Origin: a virus
Direction: 5' to 3' (one strand)
DNA length: 64,000 nucleotides
IMG/VR virus record: IMGVR_UViG_3300028827_000100
Location: 1 to 64,000 of that record
The notes below the pieces were generated by a model. That model made no database searches, was not told where the DNA came from, and was given only the letters and a program-made list of their open reading frames with translations. The position numbers were made by a program, and so were the translations under genes. Position 1 is the stretch's first letter; each line of letters begins with the position of its first letter. Of the stretch, positions 776 through 52,051 are shown piece after piece.

Positions 776-1942
776 GTGAAGAAGGTGAGAAAGATATTAA
801 AGAGAAACAGAAGCAATGTTAATGTGATAGAGTTCGGTGACTGTCGTGAAATCCTGAAGCGATGGATTGACGAAGGGGTACAAGTTCATACTTGTGTAAC
901 ATCTCCACCTTACTACGGGTTAAGAGATTACGGCGTGGATGGACAGATAGGTATGGAAGAAACACCCGAAGAATATGTTGCTAACTTGGTTGAAATATTT
1001 CGTCTTGTTCGAAAGGTGTTGCGTGACGATGGGACGTTGTGGTTGAATTTGGGGGATAGTTATGCCTCCAATTTGTATATGAGAAATGCACATAAATACA
1101 AAGACAGAAAAGATGTTAGGGGTGGGGAGTATAAAATTAAAGCAAAAGATTTGATGGGTATCCCGTGGCGAGTAGCCTTCGCACTGCAAGCCGATGGCTG
1201 GTACTTGAGACAAGATATAATCTGGCACAAGCCAAATCCGATGCCAGAGGCTGTAGCTGATAGATGTACAAAGGCGCATGAATATATATTTCTGTTGAGT
1301 AAATCCAAGAAATATTATTATGACCAACTGGCTACACTGGAACCAGCTATTAGCGGAATTAAATCCCCTGGAAAGTCAAGAACAGATAGTTACCACAAAT
1401 TAATTTTACCGGATGGCACACCCCCGTTTCAGCAAGAAGTCAAATCTTGGGGAAGTATTGATGGTAATCGAAACAAACATTCTGTTTGGACTGTTACTCT
1501 AACCCCATACAAAGAGGCTCATTTTGCGACGTATCCACCGTCTTTGATAGAGCCGTGCATTCTTGCCGGAACATCCGAAAAAGGGTGTTGTCCGGTTTGT
1601 GGTTCTCCGTGGGAGCGCAAAATTAAAAGGAGAAAAACAGGTTCTGTCAAGCCAAGAACTTTTGGTAAATCTGGGAACAAAGACAGGACAGATATTGGAT
1701 GGGTATATGAAGGTTTGATTACAACAACCGTTGGTTGGAGACCTACTTGCAGTTGTAATGCGGGAGACCCCGTACCATGCATTGTTCTTGACCCATTTAT
1801 GGGGAGTGGTACAACAGCGGCGGTGGCTGTAAAGCATAATCGAAATTATATAGGTTGCGAACTGAACAAAGAATATAAAAAGTTACAAGATGAAAGAATT
1901 AAGTTGGCGAAAATCGACAAATATGGTTTTTTTTGGTTTTAA
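776..1942 (+). CDS. DNA methyltransferase (N4-C/N6-A, beta class) with Cys-rich insert
   Basis: TSPPY catalytic motif precedes DPFMGSGTT SAM-binding motif; IIWHKPNPMPE; CPVCG/PTCSC insert. Confidence 0.93.
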   Translation: MKKVRKILKRNRSNVNVIEFGDCREILKRWIDEGVQVHTCVTSPPYYGLRDYGVDGQIGMEETPEEYVANLVEIFRLVRKVLRDDGTLWLNLGDSYASNLYMRNAHKYKDRKDVRGGEYKIKAKDLMGIPWRVAFALQADGWYLRQDIIWHKPNPMPEAVADRCTKAHEYIFLLSKSKKYYYDQLATLEPAISGIKSPGKSRTDSYHKLILPDGTPPFQQEVKSWGSIDGNRNKHSVWTVTLTPYKEAHFATYPPSLIEPCILAGTSEKGCCPVCGSPWERKIKRRKTGSVKPRTFGKSGNKDRTDIGWVYEGLITTTVGWRPTCSCNAGDPVPCIVLDPFMGSGTTAAVAVKHNRNYIGCELNKEYKKLQDERIKLAKIDKYGFFWF

Positions 1943-2998: not shown

Positions 2999-3862
2999 AT
3001 GTTTGAAGTGATTGAAAAACTGAATAAGGATTTGAAGGAAGCGGCAAAGAGACTTGAAGGGAGGGAATGCAGGTATCTCGTTGATGCATATTACATGATT
3101 CAAGAGTATAGAAAGTCTCTTGCAAATCAAATCAGGATGTCCGGCGATGAACCTAACGCCCTGATTGGCTGGATGTTTGAGCAGGCAAAGGTTGTTGAGA
3201 ACAACATCAAAAGAGCGTTAGATGTTTACACTGACGAAAATCCTGTTGGCGTCTGGATGAAATCAATCAAAGGCATTGGCCCTGTTCTTGCGGCAGGATT
3301 ACTTGCTCATATAGACATAGAGAAAGCACCTACTGTTGGGCACATCTGGTCATTTGCCGGACTTGACCCCACGAAGAAGTGGGGGAAGGGGCAGAAGAGA
3401 CCGTGGAATGCACGGTTGAAAACTTTATGCTGGAAGATAGGAGATTGTTTTGTTAAGGTCTCAAATCGCCCTGATGATTTGTATGGTAAGCTGTACAAGG
3501 AGAGAAAAGAATATGAAATCAGCAAAAACTTGAGAGGGGAATATGCAGAGCAGGCGGCAGAAATTTTGAGAACAAAAAATATAGGTCGTGACACGGAAGC
3601 GTACAAATATTATGTTCAGGGGCTTCTGCCGCCGGGCCATATAGACATGAGGGCAAGAAGATATGCTGTTAAACAGTTCCTTGCTGATTTACACTATGTA
3701 TGGTATAGATACCATTTTAAGAAGGAGCCGCCAAAACCGTATCCTATAGCTATACTTGGCCATGCTCATGAGAGGGAAAAGCCATTGTTTAGAACGATTG
3801 TTCCGGCAAAGCGAGCCATAGAAAAGGATAGTACCCGGAATAGGGAGCGAAAAAGTATATAG
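2999..3862 (+). CDS. IS110/Nop-domain RNA-binding protein without RuvC, TIGR-associated TasA-like
   Basis: N-terminal coiled coil, then IKGIGPVLAAGLL..IWSFAGLDP..WNARLK..H.DMRARRYAVKQFL (IS110 Transposase_20/Nop-like); no DEDD RuvC or HNH; start at 2999 after GAGGAGG; directly followed by periodic array. Confidence 0.8.
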   Translation: MFEVIEKLNKDLKEAAKRLEGRECRYLVDAYYMIQEYRKSLANQIRMSGDEPNALIGWMFEQAKVVENNIKRALDVYTDENPVGVWMKSIKGIGPVLAAGLLAHIDIEKAPTVGHIWSFAGLDPTKKWGKGQKRPWNARLKTLCWKIGDCFVKVSNRPDDLYGKLYKERKEYEISKNLRGEYAEQAAEILRTKNIGRDTEAYKYYVQGLLPPGHIDMRARRYAVKQFLADLHYVWYRYHFKKEPPKPYPIAILGHAHEREKPLFRTIVPAKRAIEKDSTRNRERKSI

Positions 3863-4054
3863 CCATAAGGATGGATAGCACCAACTTGGTTGAGTGAGCC
3901 TTATGAATTGCGGATGGGTTTATGCCATGTGAGTAGAGTGAGCCATCGAAAAAGAGCGAGTCATGATTAGTGAGAGTACCAAAAAAGTTAGAACGGGTCA
4001 TATCCATTGAGAGTACCACAACACCCGTGCGAATTATGTGACGAGAGTGCACCA
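3809..4054 (+). repeat. TIGR-like dual-repeat array (10-nt repeats, 8-9-nt variable spacers, 18/36-nt period)
   Basis: Type A repeats ~GAG(C/T)GAG(C/T)CA at 3809, 3845 (broken), 3892, 3936, 3954, 3991, 4027 (degenerate); type B ~GA(G/T)AG(T/C)ACCA at 3827, 3874, 3972, 4009, 4045; spacers all different. Confidence 0.8.
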
Positions 4055-4089
4055 AAATTCAAATTAAAACGAAAGGGGGTGATGATTGC

Positions 4090-4416
4090 ATGAAAGTAGG
4101 TGATACTGGCAATGTTAACGTGGAGAATCTTAAGGTTGAGGATGGTGCTACAAAAATGAATATAGTCGGCGGGTTTGGGATTGTGCATGATTATCTTTCT
4201 GAATTGAGTGCTGTAATTGATACTCTTGAGACAAGACTCAAACCTGTAACAGGGAAGATGTCCCTAAAGCCATGCGATGAAGAAAAGAAGATTAGCGGTG
4301 TCAGTTTTGTGGGGCATTTAGAATCCGAGGTTGGCGTAAATTTACGGGAGACGATTGCGCACGTACAGGAGGCAACTGAAAGATTGCATAATATAATTAT
4401 GAATCTTGAAATTTAA
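4090..4416 (+). CDS. hypothetical protein
   Basis: ORF with GGGGGT RBS. Confidence 0.65.
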   Translation: MKVGDTGNVNVENLKVEDGATKMNIVGGFGIVHDYLSELSAVIDTLETRLKPVTGKMSLKPCDEEKKISGVSFVGHLESEVGVNLRETIAHVQEATERLHNIIMNLEI

Positions 4417-4463: not shown

Positions 4464-4493
4464 GGGGTCGCATTTTGCGACCCCACTTTTTTT
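4464..4493 (+). terminator. intrinsic terminator
   Basis: GGGGTCGC-ATTTT-GCGACCCC followed by T-run. Confidence 0.85.
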
Positions 4494-4509
4494 ATAATTG
4501 GAGTGAAAT

Positions 4510-5693: not shown

Positions 5694-6026
5694 GTGATGA
5701 CCTTTGACGAATACCAGAAGAAAGCAAGACAAGTCGCAATCTATCCCAACAAGGGAAACAACATCATCTATCCAGCACTGGGTCTTTGCGGCGAGGCTGG
5801 AGAAGTTGCGGAGAAAATCAAAAAAATCCTTAGAGATAAGGGTGGCAATGTAAGTATAGAGGATAGAGAATCTATTGCCTACGAGTTGGGAGATGCCCTG
5901 TGGTACATATATGCACTGGCAGACGAGCTGGAACTATCCTTAGATGACATTGCAAGGATGAACCTTGAAAAACTGTTCTCTCGAAAAAGGAGAGGCAAAC
6001 TACAGGGAGATGGTGATGACAGGTAA
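5694..6026 (+). CDS. MazG-like nucleoside triphosphate pyrophosphohydrolase
   Basis: LGLCGEAGEVAEKIKK and ELGDALWY motifs; NLEKL.SR..RG...GDGD.R C-terminus. Confidence 0.9.
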   Translation: MMTFDEYQKKARQVAIYPNKGNNIIYPALGLCGEAGEVAEKIKKILRDKGGNVSIEDRESIAYELGDALWYIYALADELELSLDDIARMNLEKLFSRKRRGKLQGDGDDR

Positions 6027-6378: not shown

Positions 6379-6720
6379 ATGCTGGGTCCAGTTGCCATTC
6401 TTAATTCCCCAATTCTGACAGGGTGGGGTGTTTATTCATGGACACCCCTCACAGTGGAGGAGGCCAAAGAGCTCATAGCCAAGCATGGTTATGAGTCAGC
6501 GGTGGGGCATGAGGCTACCGCCGCTTTTCTCTCACGCCTCTTGGGGGTTGAAATCCCAATGAGGCGAATCCGTGTCGCCATGGGTGGCGATACGGAGGGG
6601 GAATTTCTTCACGCAATCGTCTTGCGGTTGCGTGAGAGACTCCCGGAGGGGAAGGTCCTCTCCGAAGAGGAGATGGCCAAGGTCGAGTATGACCTTGGTT
6701 ATCTCGAATGGGGGATGTAA
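6379..6720 (+). CDS. acrIII-1: AcrIII-1 family (DUF1874/STIV B116/YddF) anti-CRISPR ring nuclease
   Basis: ILNS.I, ESAVGHEATAAFLSRLLGVEIP.RR, RLPEGKVL match the DUF1874 signature, including the GH histidine. Confidence 0.88.
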   Translation: MLGPVAILNSPILTGWGVYSWTPLTVEEAKELIAKHGYESAVGHEATAAFLSRLLGVEIPMRRIRVAMGGDTEGEFLHAIVLRLRERLPEGKVLSEEEMAKVEYDLGYLEWGM

Positions 6721-6807: not shown

Positions 6808-7053
6808 ATGAACTTTCATGATTTTTTGGAAAAGTTTGATTATGGTGAAATATATGAGGATGAGACCGGGGCGTATGTGAAATTGCTTTCCCCGGATGAG
6901 GAGGGTATTGACAGGATTGAAGTGTGGAAATTGAGTCCAAATGGATTAACGGGTGATGGCTATTCCCCCTACCACGGGGAGTATTATGACGGGTTGATAA
7001 ATCCCGGCTTTGACGATGACAGCGAAAAGGCAAAATTAATTGAGGTAGTGTAA
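6808..7053 (+). CDS. small acidic hypothetical protein
   Basis: AGGAGGT RBS; D/E-rich. Confidence 0.7.
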   Translation: MNFHDFLEKFDYGEIYEDETGAYVKLLSPDEEGIDRIEVWKLSPNGLTGDGYSPYHGEYYDGLINPGFDDDSEKAKLIEVV

Positions 7054-7529
7054 TGAAATATTACATAGGGATTGATAACGGGGTAACGGGGCATGTTGCT
7101 GTCGTAAGTGAAGATGGCAGGGTGTTGCATTATGCCCCAGTCCCGACAAAAAAAGAGCTTTCGTATACGAAGAAAGTACAACATATAACTCGAATTGACA
7201 ATCCGGCCTTGCGAAAGCTCTTGAGAAAATACAAGATGAAAGGGTTGACAAAAGTGGTCATAGAAAGGCCGCTTGTTACCCCGAAAAGATTTAAGGCGAG
7301 CCTTTCTGCAATGAGGGCACTTGAGTCTGTTCTTGTTGCTATAGAACATCTCAAACTTCCTTATCAGTACATAGACAGTAAGGAGTGGCAAAAAGCACTC
7401 CTGCCCGACAAGGTGAAAGAGACCAAAAAGGCGGCAGTGCAGGTTGCAGGGAGACTTTTCCCTGACGTCGATACCAAAGACGCCGATGCCTTGCTGATTG
7501 CAGAATACGCACGCAGAAACAATCTTTAG
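7053..7529 (+). CDS. RuvC-like Holliday junction resolvase (phage type)
   Basis: YIGIDNG, VVIERP, S.EWQK, DADALLIAEY catalytic acidic residues. Confidence 0.85.
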   Translation: MKYYIGIDNGVTGHVAVVSEDGRVLHYAPVPTKKELSYTKKVQHITRIDNPALRKLLRKYKMKGLTKVVIERPLVTPKRFKASLSAMRALESVLVAIEHLKLPYQYIDSKEWQKALLPDKVKETKKAAVQVAGRLFPDVDTKDADALLIAEYARRNNL

Positions 7530-7532
7530 GGT

Positions 7533-7616
7533 GTCGGGGTGGTGGAATTGGCAGACACGGAGGTCTCAAAAATCTCTGGCTTGTCCGTGCGGGTTCGAGT
7601 CCCGCTCCCGACACCA
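7533..7616 (+). tRNA. tRNA-Leu (anticodon CAA)
   Basis: Acceptor GTCGGGG/TCCCGAC + A-CCA; D arm GGTGGAATTGGCAGACAC; anticodon stem GAGGT/ATCTC with loop CTCAAAA; long variable arm; GGTTCGAGTCC T arm. Confidence 0.95.
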
Positions 7617-7996: not shown

Positions 7997-8198
7997 CGTA
8001 ATGGGAATTTTACTTGGCAGTGTGATGTTTGTGTTTTTTATAGAGAACATTTCGGACTTTCTGTCTTACAGGGTTGAGTCGAGAAGGTGCGGCCCTTATT
8101 TGAAAAGAGAATATGTTGCAATATCAAAGAAGCATATGTGGAATGCGGTACTTTATCTGCTACTCGCAATTGCCGTGTTTGTTGCGGTTTTTGTTTAG
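7983..8198 (+). CDS. small two-TM membrane protein
   Basis: two hydrophobic stretches; GGAGG RBS. Confidence 0.6.
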   Translation: MNGFDVMGILLGSVMFVFFIENISDFLSYRVESRRCGPYLKREYVAISKKHMWNAVLYLLLAIAVFVAVFV

Positions 8199-8208
8199 GA
8201 GGAAAAGG

Positions 8209-9600
8209 GTGAGTGTTGAATTGTTTACTACTCAAGATTCGATAGCATGGCTTTTGCTTGGCAAATGTGAAAGGGCTATGGGGGAAATGCCAGACAACTA
8301 TGTGGATACTATTATTACTGACCCGCCTTATGGCCTTCAGTTTATGGGGAAGAAGTGGGATTATGATGTGCCAAGTGTAGAGACGTTTCAGGAAATGTTG
8401 AGGGTGGCAAAGCCCGGCGCAACATTGCTTTGCTTTGCGGGCGCAAGAACTCAACATCGGATGGCAGTGAATATTGAAGATGCGGGATGGGAACTGAAGG
8501 ATTGCATTATGTGGATTTACGGATCAGGATTCCCGAAGGCGACAGATATAAGTAAACAGATTGACAGGAAATTTGGGGTTAAGGGGGAAGTTATGGACAA
8601 GAGAAAGGGTTGTAGTCGAAAGCGTATTTATAATGTGGCGGTATATTCTGGATCATCAGGCAGGGAATATGAGATAGTTGCTCCTACCACCCCCGAAGCA
8701 AAACTCTGGAACGGCTGGAAATCACATGGGCTCAAACCTGCCTATGAACCTATTCTCGTAGCAATGAAACCAAACGAAGGTAGCTATGCACAGAACGCAT
8801 TGAAATGGGGTGTGAGCGGGTTGAATATAGATGGTGCGAGGATAGAATTAAAGGGTATTGAAGAACATACTACGGAAGCAAAAAGCGGTCTTGGTAAAAG
8901 GATATATGGAAAATATAAAAATAAACCAACCATAACATCTGATTTGCCGAGATATAACATTAAAGGTCGCTACCCCGCCAATATCATCCTTGACGAAGAA
9001 GCCGCAAGAATGCTGGATGAACAAATAGGCGACCAAGGCGGTGCATCACGATTCTTCTATGTTGCCAAGGCATCAAGGGCAGAAAGAAACATGGGGCTTG
9101 AAGACTTACCCGCCAAAGAGAGGGCCAATATCAATAAAATGATGGGAAGTGATGACAACAGTATGCTTACAGGTAGTGGAAATAAGCGGAATAATAAATT
9201 GCAAAACTTCCACCCCACTGTCAAACCTCTGGAGTTAATAGTATATTTGTGCAACCTTACCAAAACTCCATTTGGCGGGGTTGTACTTGATCCATATATG
9301 GGAAGTGGCACAACCGGAATTGCGTGCCTCATTACAGGTAGGGATTTTATTGGTATTGAAATGAAGCCTGATTATTATAAAGTGGCTTGTGAGAGAAGTA
9401 AGTATGTGAGTAGAAAGTTGCTCAAAATCAAACATAATCCTTTTGAACTCATATCTAATCTGGATGATTCAAATGAACTTGAAAGGTTGATTAAGAATTA
9501 TTCAAGGTTTGTGTGTGGGCACAAACTTAACAATCCAAAATTGAATAAAAGTAAGGGGGGTGAAAAAAACAGGCAAGGTGATACACTTTTTAAATATTGA
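8209..9600 (+). CDS. DNA adenine/N4-cytosine methyltransferase (beta class)
   Basis: TDPPY, WIYGSGFPK, HPTVKP, DPYMGSGTT; GTG start after GGAGG. Confidence 0.93.
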   Translation: MSVELFTTQDSIAWLLLGKCERAMGEMPDNYVDTIITDPPYGLQFMGKKWDYDVPSVETFQEMLRVAKPGATLLCFAGARTQHRMAVNIEDAGWELKDCIMWIYGSGFPKATDISKQIDRKFGVKGEVMDKRKGCSRKRIYNVAVYSGSSGREYEIVAPTTPEAKLWNGWKSHGLKPAYEPILVAMKPNEGSYAQNALKWGVSGLNIDGARIELKGIEEHTTEAKSGLGKRIYGKYKNKPTITSDLPRYNIKGRYPANIILDEEAARMLDEQIGDQGGASRFFYVAKASRAERNMGLEDLPAKERANINKMMGSDDNSMLTGSGNKRNNKLQNFHPTVKPLELIVYLCNLTKTPFGGVVLDPYMGSGTTGIACLITGRDFIGIEMKPDYYKVACERSKYVSRKLLKIKHNPFELISNLDDSNELERLIKNYSRFVCGHKLNNPKLNKSKGGEKNRQGDTLFKY

Positions 9601-41371: not shown

Positions 41372-42196
41372 GTGATGGCAAAGGTTAGAAAAATTAAAAA
41401 GGTTTCGGGTCGGAAAAACAGGATTGGGAAAAAGGTTGACAGGAAGAAGGTCTACAGCCACAGAAACAGGGAGCAGAATCTTCCGGTTGTTTCGGATGTA
41501 TCAGAATTTTCCTTTCTTGATGACGGTCAGCACAGTTGTAGAATTTGCAGAACTCCAGCCGTGAGATTTTTCGTTGTTGAATGCATGGCAAGGGGTTTAT
41601 CTCTTTACAAAACGAGAGAACTTCTCAAAAAACATTTTAATTTTGGAATCACTCCAGCAACGATACGTGAGCATATTGAAAAGCATGATACACAGTACAC
41701 AAAGTGGTTCGGAATGGTTCAGTACAAATTTCCGACCGAAGAAGAAAGAAAGAGATACGAAGCGGCGTTTTTGAGTAGAGTGTCCATTGTAACAGAAATG
41801 TGGGACAAATACATGGTGATTTCAAAACTTTTTAGCATGGTGGTTGGTGATGCAAATAAGATAAATGAAAACGCCGTATTCAATGTTGATGATGTGGCAA
41901 AACTTTCCAACGTAATGAAGTCGTATCTGGAATCAATACTGAAACTCCAGAAGGAAAGGGATATATATGTAGAGGTTGCGAAGGTTGTGCTGTTTACAAT
42001 GGCTAACAACCTCGTTGACAGGTTGTCATCACTTGTAATGGATTTGCCGCAGGAAAGAAGGGATGCGATAGGCAAGGCAATTACGGAAGAGGTAAGGGCG
42101 GCGTTAGACCATGCAAAAAATCTTGGCAGGGAAAAAATAGAGAAGCTCATGGAGAAGGTGCAGGATGAATACAACAGGCTTGTCAAAAAGACATGA
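41372..42196 (+). CDS. putative terminase small subunit
   Basis: basic N-terminus, CRIC...H..KH HTH-like region; directly upstream of TerL. Confidence 0.55.
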   Translation: MMAKVRKIKKVSGRKNRIGKKVDRKKVYSHRNREQNLPVVSDVSEFSFLDDGQHSCRICRTPAVRFFVVECMARGLSLYKTRELLKKHFNFGITPATIREHIEKHDTQYTKWFGMVQYKFPTEEERKRYEAAFLSRVSIVTEMWDKYMVISKLFSMVVGDANKINENAVFNVDDVAKLSNVMKSYLESILKLQKERDIYVEVAKVVLFTMANNLVDRLSSLVMDLPQERRDAIGKAITEEVRAALDHAKNLGREKIEKLMEKVQDEYNRLVKKT

Positions 42197-42209
42197 TAAT
42201 ATCCTGAAG

Positions 42210-44087
42210 ATGAAACCTGTTGGCATTGACAGTTTTTGCCGTTCCATTTCACACAACAGTAAAATTGTTATTGAACTTCCGTCAGATACTCCGGTTGAAG
42301 CGGACGACGACCTGTTTCTGGAAGGGCTTGCTGTCAAGGTCGCCGGAGAAAAAGAAAAGAAAGTTGTAAGTGAAGAATATGGGAATATTATAGATTATGC
42401 GGTTAGAGCACTTGGTTTGAGAACGATATACAAGTATAAGCGGCAATATCAGGTGTTGAGAGACTTTTTCATGTTGCGATGTCCCGTCTGCAACGGAAAA
42501 GAAATGGATGTATGGAATATGACTGAAGAAGAAATTGAGAGAGAAGTGCTCATGCGACTTGACATGAAGTCTGAAAAACTTGTCTGTGACGGGTGCGGGC
42601 ACACCGTTGACAGGATGAAGTACAGAGACCTTGTTCTGTGTGTTGGCATGAGAAGCGGAAAAACTGTTACAGCGGCGATAATTGCCGCATATATATTTTA
42701 TCTGATTTTTGTTGTACCAAAACTTGACAGAAGGTTTCAGCTCATACCAGACCAGAGCTTGAGGGTGTCCATGGTAAGTACATCTTCGTCACAGACTGAA
42801 AAGACGGTTTGGTCTGCATTTACTTCATTGCTTGAGAACGCAATAGACGAAGATATAAAAAGAATTGTCAGGAACAATTCCAACTATGTTGAGATAGATA
42901 CGAATACAAAAGAGTGGAAAGTTGAAAACATAGAGTTTATGTCACTACACTCAAACTCCGGTTCACTTGCAGGTGGTACTGGCATACTTGCCGTGCTTGA
43001 GGAGTTTTCGAGATTTAACCTTGGCACTTCAAAGAGGAGTGCGGATGAAGTGAGAAACGTTTTGGACAGATCGCTTGCAACAACGAGGTCGGTTGCCAAA
43101 ACGTATCTCGAAGACCTCTTTACATTAATGGTAGTCATAAGTTCACCCTACTATGTTGTCGACGATCCTACAATGATGCTGTTTTATGATGTGGGCGAAT
43201 CGGGCGTTATCAATGTGAAATATGGCAGGCATATCAAAGGTGAACTGCTTGCATACCATTATCCAACTTGGGAATTTAATCCATTTATAGACAGAGGGGC
43301 ATCTTTCATAGAGAGGGCGTATTCTCTGGATGCGGCGGCGGCAGAAAGGGACTATGGGGCCAATCCTGTATCGTCGGCTGGTGGATTGTTTGAAAATGTT
43401 GAAAGCATTTACGAGAAAATTTTTCTGGATACAGACGACGGAATTATTTTTAATGTATATCCAAAACGAGAAGGAGACCTTGTAGCATTAACGGCTAAAG
43501 TTGAAAGCATAAAGAATTGTTTTGCCAAAGAGTATTATGTTCACATAGACCTTGGCTTGAATCACGACCTTCTGACTATGGTGTTTGCGAGGCCTGAAGA
43601 TGGGAATGTTTATGTTGACGGCATGCTTGTTATAAAGTCTGAACACAACATAGAGGCATACATTGATACACCGATTGAAATAATAGAAAGTATTAAAGAC
43701 AGGGTGAAAATAAATTATGTATCTTACGACAGATGGCAATCTGTTCCCGGCATACAGCGTTTGAAAAGGATGATGATTCCGGCTGGACTTTTCAGTGTCC
43801 GTGATGATGCGATAGTCACCTTGAAGTTTATGATGATGGCCGGAAAGGTTTACATACTTGACAACGACAAAAATGCAACGACAATTTTGAAACACGAAAT
43901 GAGAAGCGTGAGAAGGGTTAATGGAAAGTTAACTCATACAGATTTGCTTGTGTCTGTTTCCGGTGCTGTGAAGAACGCATTTACAGGTGTTACAAAGAAA
44001 ATGTATACCAAGGGCAGGAATGTCGTTTCCCATGTTACAGATTACAAAAACTTCATGCCGAGAACTGCAAAAATAGGCAGGCTTTAG
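42210..44087 (+). CDS. terL: terminase large subunit
   Basis: GMRSGKT Walker A, AVLEEF Walker B, PTWEFNP, ERDYGA.P, HIDLG and YDRWQS nuclease motifs. Confidence 0.9.
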   Translation: MKPVGIDSFCRSISHNSKIVIELPSDTPVEADDDLFLEGLAVKVAGEKEKKVVSEEYGNIIDYAVRALGLRTIYKYKRQYQVLRDFFMLRCPVCNGKEMDVWNMTEEEIEREVLMRLDMKSEKLVCDGCGHTVDRMKYRDLVLCVGMRSGKTVTAAIIAAYIFYLIFVVPKLDRRFQLIPDQSLRVSMVSTSSSQTEKTVWSAFTSLLENAIDEDIKRIVRNNSNYVEIDTNTKEWKVENIEFMSLHSNSGSLAGGTGILAVLEEFSRFNLGTSKRSADEVRNVLDRSLATTRSVAKTYLEDLFTLMVVISSPYYVVDDPTMMLFYDVGESGVINVKYGRHIKGELLAYHYPTWEFNPFIDRGASFIERAYSLDAAAAERDYGANPVSSAGGLFENVESIYEKIFLDTDDGIIFNVYPKREGDLVALTAKVESIKNCFAKEYYVHIDLGLNHDLLTMVFARPEDGNVYVDGMLVIKSEHNIEAYIDTPIEIIESIKDRVKINYVSYDRWQSVPGIQRLKRMMIPAGLFSVRDDAIVTLKFMMMAGKVYILDNDKNATTILKHEMRSVRRVNGKLTHTDLLVSVSGAVKNAFTGVTKKMYTKGRNVVSHVTDYKNFMPRTAKIGRL

Positions 44088-44096
44088 GGGGTGTAG

Positions 44097-45944
44097 ATGC
44101 CAACTAAAAAGACAACCGGAAAAACAAAAAAGAAGACAGCGTCGTATAACGATGTGATTCCAAGAATAATTGGTGGTGCTGGTAGTGATGGTGGAATGAA
44201 GAAGAAAGCCAATCCAACTGTTGGAGGGCCGGGAACGGTTGGTGGCATTTCCGGTGGAATAGAGTCCGGCATGTCTTTTACAAGACCTGTCAGGTATGAG
44301 CCGGAGTTTGCTTCACCTGAAAGATGGTCTTTTCCAAAAAACATCAAAAAGATAAATGACTACTTCAGAATATTTTACAAGTTCGATCCGCTCGTTGGTG
44401 CTGTGATAGATATATACACAGAAATGCCATTGTCGGATTATGAGATAAGCGGCGACGGGGTTGACGGTGAAATCAAGGAAAGACTTGAAGAAATGTTTGA
44501 AGTGATTAATTTTCTGTCCTTGATGAAAAATATAGGGACAGAGTTTCTTGTTGTAGGTGAGGCGATACCACATCTCTTTTACAATAAAGACCTTGGATAT
44601 TGGGATGGGTATAGTCTTCACAGGCAGGAAGATATTGAAGTGGTGGATACTCACTTAATGGGTATAGAGCCGGTTCTTATTCTTCGACCGGACAAGGAAG
44701 AGGTTGCAAAGCTGAAAAAAATAAAAACGGCATATGAAAAATTCGGAATTGAGCAGGGTGAAACAAATCTTTACATGGAAGAGCTTTTGACAAAAAAGGA
44801 AGTTGCACTTGAAAACCTGAATGTGACGTTTATACCAAGAAGATTGCACGAGTATGAATTGCGTGGAACGAGTATATTGACGAGATTGTGGAGGGCGTTC
44901 ATGTACGAAGACGCTCTTGCAAATGCGAGTATACAGACCGCATACAGGCACGCATCTCCTGTCAAGGTTGTTAAAATGGGAGACCTTGCGAGCGGATACA
45001 TACCCACGGAAGAACAGATTAATGAATTGACAAGAGTTCTTGCGATGAGTGAGACAGACCCGCAGGCATGGGTTTTTGCTCCCCCCGGAACAACATTTGA
45101 AGCATGGGGTACAAATGACAGGATAACAGGGTTGAAATCTGATTATGAGATTATAGAAAATATGAAGTTGACAGCCCTTGGTGTAAGCAGAGATTTTATT
45201 ACGGGGGCGGCGAATTATGCATCGGCACAGGCCGGATTGCAGGTTTTGCTTTCAAGATTGCTTGCATTTAGAACTTTGATAGAACAGGCGTTTGTTTATC
45301 CAAAATTCATTTTTCCGATTGTTAAGGTGAACAAGTGGATTAGAAGGTCTGCCGCCGATTATGAACACAACGTGAGAACTACAAAAAATACGAATTATGT
45401 TATGCCGAAAATAGTGTGGAGCAAGAAGTTGAAAGTTACAGTTGATGCTGAACTGCTTGAGGCGTATTCAAGTCTTGTAAGAGATTTTGACGTTAAGTTG
45501 AGTGAGAGAACTCTTACCGAAGTAGTTGGTATTAACTGGTCAGATGAACAGAGGCGAATTATGGAAGAGAAAATGATAAAGAGTATTATGGAAAAAGGAG
45601 AGATGGAAGAAGGCGAAACGCCTGTTGGCGGTCTACCGGGTGGAGGAGGCAGAGGATTTGGTGGCTTTACCGGAGAGCCGAAAGCCCTTGGTGAGGGCGG
45701 TGGCCCTGAAGGTGGTGTTGAAGAAATTGCGCCAGAACCGAATCTGGAAGAAAGTCCCGGCGAAGTCAGAATGCACGCTTCCGCAAAAAGACAGCTTGGA
45801 GATGTATTTCTTTCCGGTGTTTACAAACCTAACGGTAGAGCAATGCGTGTTCTTGAAGACATATCTGTTGACGAACTCAAGGACAAGATAGGAAAATTGT
45901 ACAGGAACGGGAAGAAGGGTAAGGTAAAAAAAAATAAAAGGTAA
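44097..45944 (+). CDS. portal protein
   Basis: follows TerL; DPLVG..ID.Y.E.P.S, RGTSIL; G/E/P-rich tail. Confidence 0.8.
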   Translation: MPTKKTTGKTKKKTASYNDVIPRIIGGAGSDGGMKKKANPTVGGPGTVGGISGGIESGMSFTRPVRYEPEFASPERWSFPKNIKKINDYFRIFYKFDPLVGAVIDIYTEMPLSDYEISGDGVDGEIKERLEEMFEVINFLSLMKNIGTEFLVVGEAIPHLFYNKDLGYWDGYSLHRQEDIEVVDTHLMGIEPVLILRPDKEEVAKLKKIKTAYEKFGIEQGETNLYMEELLTKKEVALENLNVTFIPRRLHEYELRGTSILTRLWRAFMYEDALANASIQTAYRHASPVKVVKMGDLASGYIPTEEQINELTRVLAMSETDPQAWVFAPPGTTFEAWGTNDRITGLKSDYEIIENMKLTALGVSRDFITGAANYASAQAGLQVLLSRLLAFRTLIEQAFVYPKFIFPIVKVNKWIRRSAADYEHNVRTTKNTNYVMPKIVWSKKLKVTVDAELLEAYSSLVRDFDVKLSERTLTEVVGINWSDEQRRIMEEKMIKSIMEKGEMEEGETPVGGLPGGGGRGFGGFTGEPKALGEGGGPEGGVEEIAPEPNLEESPGEVRMHASAKRQLGDVFLSGVYKPNGRAMRVLEDISVDELKDKIGKLYRNGKKGKVKKNKR

Positions 45945-50887: not shown

Positions 50888-52051
50888 ATGAGAAATCCAT
50901 ATAAGAAGGCTAATAATGGCAAGGGAGTCAAGAGGACTGTTGGAGCTATAAAGAAGAGAAGAAGCGTTCCAAAGATTGCTTCAAGACTGGCAAGAAAAGA
51001 TTTGCGTACAAGGATGCTGGACGACAACAGGAACATCAATCCCATGTTGAGTACCGGCGAGAGAATGTTCAACAAGGAGGGTTCTCTCAACGCATATGAC
51101 AAGAGAGATGCTATTGCGATGATACACAGGCTGTTGAACGATACCCACCTTGGCAAGGTTCGTTCTGCATCCTATAGAAAGGAATCGGATTTGAAGCCTG
51201 AAGAAAGAAGGGAGATTCTCATTCAGGCATTTAAGTCCGATGATGGAATCAGAAAGTTGGGCGAGGAGTTGCTTGCTCCGATTAAGAACGTGCTCGACTA
51301 TGAAGGTTGGGCCAGAAAGATTCTCCGAATCAAGGAGATTGGTCAGGGTGAAATCCACAGGATTTCAAAAGACATTTATGTGGTCGCCTTCATCGTTGGG
51401 CAGGATGGTCAGAGTGTAAGTTCGCAGGCCTTCGGTTCTTACATCTACCCTTCAGAGTTCAAGGTTACGGCCTTTCCTGAAGTTGACATTCAGGACATCT
51501 ACCAGATGAATTTTGATGTTCTTGAACGTCAGCAGGATTTGGCGAAGCAGATGATTATGCTGAAGGAAGACAAGGCCCTCGTTTCTGCTCTCGATCAGGC
51601 GTCTACCGCAGTCAATGATGTTGTGTATTTCTCCACGTTCAACATTGGTACTTTCGAGGACATAAGGTATCAGGTTGAGCGTCACAGGTTGATAGTTGAC
51701 AAGTTCATCGTCAACAGGCAGGAGATAAACAACCTCATCAAGAATATGCACAACTATGTTGACATTGTGACGGAGCGTGAGCTGATACTCATGGGCTATA
51801 TCGGAAACGTGCTCGGTACACAGATTATCACTACTGCCGGAACGGGTGTTCAGGAAGTTGTTCCTGCTGGTAGCGTGTACGTTGTCACACAGGGTTCGTT
51901 CCTTGGTGAGATGGGAATCAGGCTCGACCTCCAGAGCGAACAGTACAACAAGTTCAATCAGCAGGAGACGAAGAAGGGTTGGATGTTCCTTGAGATAATC
52001 GATCAGGCTATCGCAAATCCAAGGTCGGTTGCAAAAGGCGTCCGCATATAG
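50888..52051 (+). CDS. major capsid protein (HK97-fold)
   Basis: PI...LDYEG..RK, F.V...P.V...DI...FDVLER.QD.AKQ.I...ED; followed by strong terminator. Confidence 0.85.
   Translation: MRNPYKKANNGKGVKRTVGAIKKRRSVPKIASRLARKDLRTRMLDDNRNINPMLSTGERMFNKEGSLNAYDKRDAIAMIHRLLNDTHLGKVRSASYRKESDLKPEERREILIQAFKSDDGIRKLGEELLAPIKNVLDYEGWARKILRIKEIGQGEIHRISKDIYVVAFIVGQDGQSVSSQAFGSYIYPSEFKVTAFPEVDIQDIYQMNFDVLERQQDLAKQMIMLKEDKALVSALDQASTAVNDVVYFSTFNIGTFEDIRYQVERHRLIVDKFIVNRQEINNLIKNMHNYVDIVTERELILMGYIGNVLGTQIITTAGTGVQEVVPAGSVYVVTQGSFLGEMGIRLDLQSEQYNKFNQQETKKGWMFLEIIDQAIANPRSVAKGVRI

What the first reader, a model, noticed from the sequence alone, without database searches (positions are those of the whole stretch)
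2999..4054. Phage-encoded TIGR-Tas-like RNA-guided system: nuclease-less IS110/Nop protein plus dual-repeat mini-spacer array
Seen: the 287-aa protein has a coiled coil and an IS110 Transposase_20/Nop-like region (GIGPVLAAGLL, WSFAGLDP, HIDMRARR) but no RuvC (DEDD) or HNH domain. Immediately 3' is an array of 10-nt repeats separated by distinct 8-9-nt spacers: AAGCGAGCCA-tagaaaag-GATAGTACCC-ggaatagg-GAGCGA..; ..AGCCA-taaggatg-GATAGCACCA-acttggtt-GAGTGAGCCT; ..GCCA-tgtgagta-GAGTGAGCCA-tcgaaaaa-GAGCGAGTCA-tgattagt-GAGAGTACCA-aaaaagtta-GAACGGGTCA-tatccatt-GAGAGTACCA-caacaccc-GTGCGAATTA-tgtgacga-GAGTGCACCA. Two repeat types largely alternate, giving an 18-nt sub-period and 36-nt unit, mostly with (C/T)CA before and GA after each spacer. 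Established: TIGR arrays have alternating edge/loop repeats with box C/D-like ends and two ~9-nt spacers per 36-nt guide, bound by Nop-domain Tas proteins; TasA lacks a nuclease. Inference: this is a TasA-type locus producing roughly six or seven two-spacer guides that direct PAM-independent DNA binding, for example repression of host or competing-phage genes.
Basis: partly seen in the sequence, partly recalled or inferred. Interest (0 to 1): 0.95.

Follow-up and report, generated by a model that had tools for sequence, protein, structure and literature searches.

The report
Phage TIGR-TasA locus, eroded mini-array

Summary
The observation and the interpretation both hold. ORF 2999-3862 encodes a 287-aa coiled-coil plus Nop-domain protein. 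Its best sequence and fold matches are the solved TIGR proteins TasH (Z 19.4) and TasR (Z 18.2). It aligns only to their post-nuclease parts, so it is a nuclease-less TasA. It keeps the Tyr/His pair (Y248, H255) that SpTasH uses to cut its guide precursor.

From about 3780 to 4067 lies a co-oriented dual-repeat array. The edge repeat is AGCGAGCCA, the same core as in Salicola phage SpTIGR. The loop repeat is AGAGTACCA. Spacers are 9 nt, mostly ending in G. A profile built only from 352 units of 74 homologous loci finds this array and nothing else significant in the 105,878-bp genome. Among 105 homologous loci, 91 carry such arrays beside tas.

The array is short and eroded: five intact 36/37-nt units, three decayed ones and two irregular junctions. 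Its first units lie inside the last codons of tasA.

No natural target was found, and no expression data exist.

The kind is known (Faure 2025; Xu 2026), and this scan has already noted it in at least 59 other genomes. Verdict: new member of a known kind, modest interest.

The parts
2999..3862 (+). tasA coding sequence (287 aa, protein P0001), preceded by an AGGAGG ribosome-binding site. Stop codon TAG at 3860-3862.
   Evidence: PHROG 4285 at 1.8e-52; more than 6,000 homologues of about 265 aa
3002..3235 (+). N-terminal coiled-coil hairpin (helices aa 2-17, 21-47, 54-79), the predicted dimerisation domain. No nuclease domain precedes it.
   Evidence: AlphaFold2 model, mean pLDDT 83.7. The model aligns from residue 19-20 to TasH residue 66 and TasR residue 110.
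3242..3769 (+). Nop / IS110-type RNA-binding domain (aa 82-257), including the Transposase_20 motif region aa 88-127.
3740..3763 (+). Codons of Y248 (3740-3742) and H255 (3761-3763). They are collinear with the SpTasH pre-tigRNA processing dyad Y289/H296 (..Y-x6-H..), in a low-confidence (flexible) loop of the model.
   Evidence: SpTasH ORF read; BLASTP collinear up to aa 234/276; dyad named in PMC13421893; pLDDT below 50 at aa 250-257
3780..3813 (+). Probable decayed first unit (U0): AGCCA at 3780-3784, then 25 nt, then AGCG at 3810-3813. It lies inside the tasA ORF, just where homologous proteins end.
   Evidence: sequence; homologues end at ..ILGHAHxIxxP; TTAGAACG repeated at 3789 and 3988
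3814..3849 (+). Unit U1, predicted 36-nt tigRNA: AGCCA, spacer A TAGAAAAGG, loop ATAGTACCC, spacer B GGAATAGGG, AGCG. It lies entirely inside the tasA coding sequence.
   Evidence: nhmmer hit 3810-3850 at E 1.4e-3
3850..3860 (+). 11-nt linker AAAAAGTATAT inserted exactly at the predicted processing site of an edge repeat (AGCG|AGCCA). It overlaps the tasA stop codon.
   Evidence: sequence; processing site taken from TaTasR tigRNA1 in Table S3 of PMC12045711
3861..3896 (+). Unit U2, predicted 36-nt tigRNA: AGCCA, TAAGGATGG, ATAGCACCA, ACTTGGTTG, AGTG.
   Evidence: nhmmer hit 3861-3900 at E 6.2e-5
3897..3922 (+). Decayed unit (U2b): AGCCT, TATGAATTG, then a loop remnant CGGATGGGT and a truncated end (26 nt).
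   Evidence: sequence; its spacer matches the U5 spacer A at 7 of 9 positions
3923..3958 (+). Unit U3, predicted 36-nt tigRNA: TGCCA, TGTGAGTAG, AGTGAGCCA (an edge-like sequence in the loop position), TCGAAAAAG, AGCG.
3959..3995 (+). Unit U4, predicted 37-nt tigRNA: AGTCA, TGATTAGTG, AGAGTACCA, AAAAAGTTAG, AACG. Its 5' and 3' handles keep the edge pairing through a U:A pair.
   Evidence: nhmmer hit 3955-3983 at E 1.1e-4
3996..4031 (+). Unit U5, predicted 36-nt tigRNA: GGTCA, TATCCATTG, AGAGTACCA, CAACACCCG, TGCG.
   Evidence: nhmmer hit at E 0.11
4032..4067 (+). Decayed last unit (U6): AATTA, TGTGACGAG, AGTGCACCA, AAATTCAAA, with no closing edge repeat. It runs into the ribosome-binding site of the next gene.
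   Evidence: (repeat family D3: 4036-4054 is 79% identical to 3927-3945)
4090..4416 (+). Downstream 108-aa ORF of unknown function, probably co-transcribed. It is not conserved beside tas in other loci.
4464..4494 (+). First terminator-like hairpin plus T-run after the array. None lies between tasA, the array and ORF 4090.

Best explanation
This is a dual-repeat TIGR-TasA locus of a tailed phage.

Shown here:
- tasA encodes a coiled-coil plus Nop-domain protein with no nuclease domain.
- A co-oriented array with the family's edge and loop repeats follows it and partly overlaps its 3' end.

Inferred from characterised relatives (FpTasA, SpTasH, TaTasR, MbTasA, PlTasA):
- tasA, the array and ORF 4090 are transcribed as one RNA.
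- A TasA dimer binds each unit through box C (CCA or UCA) and box D (AG).
- The Y248/H255 loop cuts within the edge repeat (AGCG|AGCCA), releasing about five 36-nt tigRNAs.
- Each ribonucleoprotein binds double-stranded DNA whose one strand reads spacer A followed by the reverse complement of spacer B. It has no PAM requirement and does not cleave.
- The effect is to block transcription or replication of a host, rival-element or phage target that is still unknown.

The array is small and eroded, so only U1-U5 are likely guides.
For: - Protein by sequence: PDB matches to TasR 9mty_A (8.9e-15) and TasH (5.7e-10), with IS621 and ISCro4 only weak.
- Protein by fold: Foldseek's top ten are all TasR or TasH. 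VIA-align gives TasH Z 19.4 (221 residues aligned, rmsd 3.5), TasR Z 18.2 and ISCro4 Z 13.0, against a helical background of about 10.
- No nuclease: no DEDD or HNH domain in Pfam.
- Processing dyad: Y248/H255 is collinear with SpTasH Y289/H296.
- Array periodicity: 18/36-nt period.
- Independent detection: a profile from 74 other loci finds only this array in the genome.
- Repeats: the edge repeat is identical to SpTIGR's AGCGAGCCA. The same edge/loop pair is the consensus in L024, L029, L047, L076 and L093.
- Pairing: all five units keep both edge base pairs, including a U:A pair in U4.
- Family context: 91 of 105 homologous loci have arrays. Under the strict detector, no locus had six or more chained repeats on the opposite strand. 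The first repeat typically lies 13-14 nt after the tas stop.
- RNA structure: the array has no stable fold (z 0.29), as expected for dual-repeat rather than stem-loop arrays.
- Mechanism: from PMC12045711, PMC13421893 and bioRxiv 10.64898/2026.09.09.750476 and 10.64898/2026.08.11.744272.
Against: - There are no expression or processing data. No RNA run holds the locus.
- No target was found in the phage's own genome.
- Guides U2 and U5 in viral contigs, and U4 and U5 in 185,579 genomes, gave only chance-level hits.
- The array is degenerate. Identity to its own consensus is 0.80-0.83, against a median of 0.92 in homologues.
- Two of the junctions are irregular, and the U1 and U2 loops have a U.C mismatch in place of the box C/D pair.
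- There is no terminator after the array.
- DNA binding and repression have been shown for stem-loop TasAs, not for a dual-repeat TasA of this clade.
Confidence: 0.85

Rival explanations
1. Relic array. tasA is intact, but the array is a decaying remnant that no longer yields working guides. The protein would then be idle, act without guides, or use guides encoded elsewhere.
For: - Only 5 intact units, against a median of about 16 (33 repeats) in homologues. Only 11 of 91 homologous arrays are this small.
- Three decayed units and two irregular junctions. Such junctions make up about 1-2% of junctions in homologous arrays.
- The strict motif detector misses the array.
- The U1 and U2 loops lack the box pair.
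Against: - All five units keep 36/37-nt length, both edge pairs (one through a U:A pair) and CCA- or UCA-type box C.
- An ATAG-type loop is the consensus of another array, L075.
- TasA has no frameshift or stop and keeps the invariant family residues and the Y/H dyad.
- No other array exists in the genome that could supply guides.
Confidence: 0.1
2. IS110-family transposase fragment. The ORF is the C-terminal remnant of an insertion-sequence transposase, and the downstream repeats are coincidental or part of a bridge-RNA-like element.
For: - The Pfam hit is Transposase_20.
- PHROG 4285 is labelled 'transposase'.
- ISCro4 and IS621 are structural relatives.
Against: - There is no DEDD domain.
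- The ORF is full-length relative to more than 6,000 homologues of about 265 aa.
- TasR and TasH score far above IS110 proteins (8.9e-15 against 0.13; Z 19 against 13).
- Homologues carry long 36-nt arrays, not IS ends.
Confidence: 0.01
3. The 18-nt periodic repeats are protein-binding sites (iterons or operators) or a repetitive peptide-coding tail, not guide RNA genes.
For: - The first repeats are translated as the TasA tail (KRA..DST..RER).
- P0062 also carries a repeat-encoded tail.
Against: - The tail is predicted disordered and is absent from most homologues.
- Most of the array is non-coding (3863-4067).
- The repeats equal those of arrays shown experimentally to give tigRNAs in SpTIGR (PMC12045711).
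- Repeat orientation is always that of tas.
Confidence: 0.02

Closest known systems
SpTIGR-TasH of Salicola phage CGphi29 (PDB 9w03, 9w04, 21kl; PMC12045711, PMC13421893)
   Same: - Best structural match: Z 19.4 over 221 residues.
- Identical edge-repeat core AGCGAGCCA, AG box D, CCA box C and a conserved purine ending each 9-nt spacer.
- 36-nt unit.
- Tyr-x6-His processing dyad in the C-terminal loop.
- Phage-encoded, with the array directly downstream of tas.
   Different: - SpTasH has an N-terminal HNH nuclease (residues 1 to about 65) and cuts DNA. This protein starts at the coiled coil.
- The loop repeat is AGACAACCA there and AGAGTACCA here.
- The SpTIGR array is regular and ends at a terminator. 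This one is eroded, overlaps the gene's end and has no terminator of its own.
- Protein identity is only about 28%.
FpTIGR-TasA of Flavonifractor plautii (dual-repeat TasA; PMC12045711)
   Same: - Solo coiled-coil plus Nop protein of about 290 aa, ending in a ..LGH.. motif.
- Dual-repeat array downstream.
- Shown to bind 36-nt RNAs.
   Different: - Its repeats use a CCN box C.
- I could not align the two proteins with the tools, because the FpTasA sequence is only in a supplement, so the degree of relatedness is untested.
TaTIGR-TasR of a Thermoproteota archaeon (PDB 9mty; PMC12045711)
   Same: - Best sequence match in the PDB (8.9e-15) and Z 18.2.
- Edge repeat UGCGAGCCA differs from this one by a single base.
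- Its tigRNA1 (AGCCA, spacer A, loop, spacer B, UGCG) gives the processing site and target geometry used here.
   Different: - It has an active N-terminal RuvC domain.
- Box D is UG rather than AG.
- It is archaeal.
MbTasA and PlTasA (stem-loop TIGR-TasA; bioRxiv 10.64898/2026.09.09.750476 and 10.64898/2026.08.11.744272)
   Same: Nuclease-less TasA, shown to bind DNA under RNA guidance and (MbTasA) to repress transcription reversibly. This is the function proposed here.
   Different: - Their guides are stem-loops, not dual repeats.
[quoted passage not shown]
- The RNA here shows no stable fold.
IS110-family bridge-RNA recombinases (IS621, ISCro4)
   Same: Shared Nop-like RNA-binding domain and coiled coil (Z 13; Pfam Transposase_20).
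   Different: No DEDD catalytic domain, no bridge RNA and no element ends. This locus has an array of many short guides instead of one two-loop RNA.

Membership tests
TIGR-Tas | Tas protein with the Nop / IS110-type RNA-binding fold | tested here: met
   - Sequence: 9mty_A at 8.9e-15, TasH at 5.7e-10.
- Foldseek: top ten hits are all TasR or TasH.
- VIA: Z 19.4 and 18.2.
TIGR-Tas | Central or N-terminal coiled coil that dimerises the protein | tested here: inconclusive
   The helical hairpin aa 2-79 is modelled with pLDDT 85-96 and superposes on the TasH and TasR coiled coils. Dimerisation itself was not modelled or measured.
TIGR-Tas | [quoted passage not shown] | tested here: met
   Five units of 36/37 nt with 9-nt repeats and 9-10-nt spacers. 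Profile hits at E 6e-5 to 1.4e-3.
TIGR-Tas | Box C before and box D after each spacer, the same in edge and loop repeats, with a base pair between them | tested here: met
   - CCA, UCA or CCC precedes and AG (AU, AA or UG in some) follows each spacer.
- Edge pairs 7:2 and 6:3 form in all five units.
- The loop pair forms in U3-U5 but not in U1-U2.
- Across loci these positions covary.
TIGR-Tas | Array transcribed and processed into 36-nt tigRNAs bound by Tas | not testable with these tools
   No RNA run holds the locus. Needs small-RNA sequencing.
TIGR-Tas | Tandem-spacer recognition of both DNA strands | not testable with these tools
   Target geometry was taken from TaTasR oligos. No natural target was found.
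TIGR-Tas, dual-repeat branch | Tyr/His processing dyad on the C-terminal loop of the Nop domain | tested here: met
   Y248 and H255 are spaced as SpTasH Y289/H296 and collinear with them. H255 is invariant in 31 homologues. Position 248 is Y or F.
TasA subtype | No HNH or RuvC nuclease domain | tested here: met
   - The protein is 287 aa and starts at the coiled coil.
- Pfam shows no nuclease domain.
- The model aligns to TasH from residue 66 and TasR from residue 110.
- The upstream ORFs are a 54-aa protein and a HAD-type nucleotidase.
IS110 transposase | N-terminal DEDD (RuvC-like) catalytic domain, PF01548 | tested here: not met
   No PF01548 hit at E up to 10. There is no room for it before the coiled coil.
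Box C/D snoRNP Nop5/56/58 | Pfam Nop domain PF01798 with an N-terminal fibrillarin-binding domain; guide RNAs with K-turns | tested here: inconclusive
   No PF01798 hit, and no Nop5 chain among the listed fold matches, where coiled-coil hits fill the list. The relationship is known from the literature only.

The most novel reading that the evidence does not exclude
Because unit U1 and the first two predicted cut sites (3813|3814 and 3849|3850) lie inside the last 17 codons of tasA, upstream of its stop codon, guide maturation by TasA would cut off the end of its own mRNA and leave a non-stop message. That would be a built-in negative feedback coupling TasA level to guide production. The unit-by-unit linkers would then mark an array evolving from a contiguous form toward separately processed units.
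Probability: 0.15. Interest if true: 0.5.

Novelty: new member of a known kind. Interest (0 to 1): 0.3.

Why it matters
The locus adds one complete-genome phage example to a family whose natural role is still open. The record is 106 kb with terminal repeats, and tasA sits in an early block with two DNA methyltransferases, MazG and an AcrIII-1-type gene.

Three things make it useful:
- It is a natural minimal system: about five guides beside a 287-aa protein.
- It is a case where guides overlap the effector's coding end, which Xu et al. 2026 report to be less frequent for dual-repeat than for stem-loop arrays.
- It shows that motif-chain detectors can miss eroded arrays that a profile of homologous units still finds.

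It does not change what is known about the mechanism.

Tried and rejected
- Tandem Repeats Finder found nothing. The copies are too short and too diverged.
- Rfam gave only sub-threshold chance hits.
- No RNA holder is listed for the locus, and read laying was not used.
- Target search in the phage's own genome, in both spacer orders: nothing better than 3-4 mismatches. With the published geometry (spacer A followed by the reverse complement of spacer B), best scores equal or fall below those of shuffled spacers.
- Exact 18/19-nt targets of U5 and U2 in viral contigs gave 2 and 4 independent hits. Targets of U5 and U4 in 185,579 genomes gave 15 and about 8 independent hits. The hits are taxonomically scattered and at about the number I estimate by chance.
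- Neighbouring genes are not conserved beside tas in 105 loci, so there is no partner gene.
- Spacers shared with homologous arrays (one 9/9 match and several 8/9) are at about the chance expectation.
- The array RNA has no significant secondary structure, so the stem-loop TIGR type is rejected.
- The strict AG....CC chain detector finds no chain in this genome.
- The metagenome scan was not used, because viral and genome loci sufficed.
Full report
**What is there.** The window is the first 64 kb of a 105,878-bp virus record with inverted terminal repeats, rated complete. It is a tailed phage, with large terminase at 42165-44087, portal at 44097-45944 and major head protein at 50888-52051. Nearly all genes lie on the + strand.

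ORF 2999-3862 follows an AGGAGG site and gives a 287-aa protein, P0001. Pfam sees only Transposase_20 over aa 88-127 and no DEDD or HNH domain. PHROG 4285, labelled 'transposase', matches at 1.8e-52.

**The protein is a TasA.**
- Against all PDB sequences the best matches are TasR 9mty_A (8.9e-15) and TasH (5.7e-10). IS110-family recombinases are marginal, at 0.13-0.27.
- An AlphaFold2 model built on 31 homologues (mean pLDDT 83.7, pTM 0.80) is all-helical. It has a helical hairpin at aa 2-79, then a globular domain, and a disordered tail from about aa 250.
- Foldseek's ten best PDB chains are all TasR or TasH, followed by ISCro4 and IS621.
- A Foldseek-independent comparison against 48,161 chains gives TasH 21kl_A Z 19.4 (221 residues, rmsd 3.5), TasR 9mty_B Z 18.2 (195 residues, rmsd 2.7) and ISCro4 Z 13.0. 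A coiled-coil background lies near Z 10.
- The model aligns to TasH residues 66-309 and TasR residues 110-322, that is, after their HNH and RuvC domains. The protein therefore has the solo coiled-coil plus Nop architecture that Faure et al. (PMC12045711) call TasA.
- SpTasH cuts its own guide precursor with Y289 and H296 (PMC13421893). Reading the SpTasH ORF places these in ..PLYVQEKLGH... P0001 has ..KPYPIAILGH.. (Y248, H255) at the collinear place, in a low-confidence loop. H255 is invariant in 31 homologues, and position 248 is Y or F.

**The array.** The 18-nt period is significant: z 4.1 in 3800-4060, reached by 0.4% of shuffles over all lags. Copies 36-37 nt apart are found at 3953, 3990 and 4026.

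I used two published anchors to set the register:
- the SpTIGR array, with repeats AGCGAGCCA and AGACAACCA;
- the synthetic TaTasR tigRNA1, which reads AGCCA, spacer A, UGAAACCCA, spacer B, UGCG (Table S3 of PMC12045711).

On that register the region resolves into five intact units:

| Unit | Coordinates | Length |
|---|---|---|
| U1 | 3814-3849 | 36 nt |
| U2 | 3861-3896 | 36 nt |
| U3 | 3923-3958 | 36 nt |
| U4 | 3959-3995 | 37 nt |
| U5 | 3996-4031 | 36 nt |

- Each unit is a 5-nt edge handle, a 9-nt spacer A, a 9-nt loop repeat, a 9-10-nt spacer B and a 4-nt edge handle.
- The edge consensus is AGCGAG(C/T)CA and the loop consensus is AGAGTACCA.
- In every unit the two edge base pairs (positions 7:2 and 6:3, formed between the 5' and 3' handles) can form. 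U4 uses a U:A pair where the others have C:G or U.G.
- The loop box pair forms in U3-U5 but not in U1-U2, whose loops start with AU.
- Three further units are decayed: U0 at 3780-3813, U2b at 3897-3922 and U6 at 4032-4067.
- An 11-nt linker (3850-3860) sits exactly at a predicted processing site.
- The RNA has no stable fold (z 0.29), as expected for dual-repeat rather than stem-loop arrays.

**Independent support from relatives.** The protein family is large: 6,155 hits at E up to 0.001, mostly about 265 aa. I fetched 105 homologous loci from viral and prokaryotic contigs.
- L001 (46% identity) shows a clean array, GAGCGAGCCG / GAGAGTGCCG.
- A box-motif chain detector finds arrays in 91 of 105 loci. 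A stricter version of it found none on the opposite strand.
- 59 loci have arrays downstream only, 18 upstream only, 14 on both sides and 14 none within the flanks.
- The first repeat usually starts 13-14 nt after the tas stop. In 7 of 73 loci it starts before the stop. Here it starts 52 nt before, or about 80 nt if U0 is counted.
- The exact pair AGCGAGCCA / AGAGTACCA is the consensus in five other loci, and the ATAG-type loop of U1-U2 is the consensus in L075.
- Edge-repeat types across loci (AGCGAGCCA, AACGAGTCA, ATCGAGACA, AGTGAACCA, ATTGAAACA) change in a compensatory way at 2:7 and 3:6.
- An nhmmer profile of 352 units from 74 loci, none from this genome, was run on both strands of the whole phage. 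It ranks U2 (6.2e-5), U4 (1.1e-4) and U1 (1.4e-3) first, with U5 at 0.11. Nothing else scores better than 0.11. This is the phage's only array.

**How this locus differs from the norm.**
- It is small: five intact units, against a median of 33 repeats (about 16 units) within the flanks fetched. Only 11 of 91 arrays are as small.
- Repeat identity to its own consensus is 0.80-0.83, against a median of 0.92.
- Irregular junctions of the kind seen twice here make up about 1-2% of junctions in homologous arrays.
- The strict detector misses the array altogether.
- The last 25 or so codons of tasA are array sequence: KRA from AGCGAGCC and DST from ATAGTACC. They are not conserved in homologues and are predicted disordered. 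This fits the statement of Xu et al. that intragenic guides fall in disordered regions.
- No terminator follows the array. The first one is at 4464-4494, after an unrelated 108-aa ORF.

**Mechanism.** The protein's family and the array's architecture are shown here. The rest is inferred from characterised relatives:
- co-transcription of tasA, the array and ORF 4090;
- binding of a TasA dimer to box C/D;
- cutting at AGCG|AGCCA by the Y/H loop;
- 36-nt guides;
- recognition of DNA reading spacer A followed by the reverse complement of spacer B, the geometry read from the TaTasR target oligos;
- binding without cleavage, hence repression, as shown for MbTasA and PlTasA.

**Targets.** None was found.
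- In the phage's own genome the best matches equal or fall below those of shuffled spacers.
- Exact targets of U2 and U5 in viral contigs, and of U4 and U5 in 185,579 genomes, gave scattered hits at about the number I estimate by chance.
- Xu et al. state the same difficulty for the whole family.

**Context.** tasA lies in an early-looking block:
- DNA methyltransferases at 776-1942 and 8113-9600;
- a HAD-type nucleotidase at 2226-2774;
- MazG at 5694-6026;
- a STIV_B116-like (AcrIII-1-type) gene at 6379-6720;
- a Holliday-junction resolvase at 7053-7529.

None of the neighbours is conserved beside tas elsewhere, so TasA plus its array is a self-contained module.

**Novelty.** TIGR-Tas was published in 2025 (PMC12045711). 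In 2026, 20,096 tas loci and 6,685 arrays were catalogued and TasA was shown to repress transcription (bioRxiv 10.64898/2026.09.09.750476). This scan already holds 77 notes on such systems in at least 59 genomes. This locus is a new member of a known kind. The only mildly unusual points are the erosion of the array and its overlap with the gene's end. That overlap suggests, without evidence so far, that guide maturation could truncate the tasA message.

Noticed in passing
window 6379-6720 (+): The 113-aa ORF matches Pfam STIV_B116-like (PF08960, DUF1874) at 8e-25. This is the family of AcrIII-1 ring nucleases and agrees with another first-stage note on this window.
   Followed up: partly
window 776-1942 and 8113-9600 (+): Two DNA methyltransferase genes (PHROG 67, 4e-70 and 6e-60) flank the early block that holds tasA. 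MazG (5694-6026), a Holliday-junction resolvase (7053-7529) and tRNA-Leu(CAA) (7533-7616) lie between them.
   Followed up: partly
loci L016, L017, L018, L025, L030, L032, L036 (e.g. L016:3329-3337): The same spacer, TCGAACAAG, sits at the same place (first unit after the tas stop) in seven homologous viral loci. A conserved first guide could point to a conserved target or to a constraint from the gene's end.
   Followed up: no
homologous arrays, 91 loci: Edge-repeat consensus types differ between loci by compensatory changes at positions 2:7 (G:C, A:U, U:A) and 3:6 (C:G, U:A). This extends to the TasA clade the covariation that Faure et al. described for TasR arrays.
   Followed up: partly
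protein P0062 (C-terminal 30 residues): Another homologue has a periodic tail (..ERATESESTN..ERATRAESTN..) that is plainly a translated array. Read-through of tas into its array therefore recurs in this clade.
   Followed up: no
loci L002, L004, L008, L062, L071, L088 and others (14 of 105): Some close homologues show no array within 2.5 kb on either side by the detector used. Their arrays may be variant, lie farther away or be lost.
   Followed up: no
window 4090-4416 (+): The 108-aa ORF directly after the array has no Pfam or PHROG match and no counterpart beside tas in other loci. It shares the terminator at 4464-4494 with tasA and the array.
   Followed up: partly
window 50888-52051 (+): The closest major head protein in the phage collection (48% identity) is from 'Virus Rctr197k', a 197-kb virus from a methane-oxidising enrichment culture. 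All other hits are below 30%, so the phage has no close cultured relative and its host is unknown.
   Followed up: no
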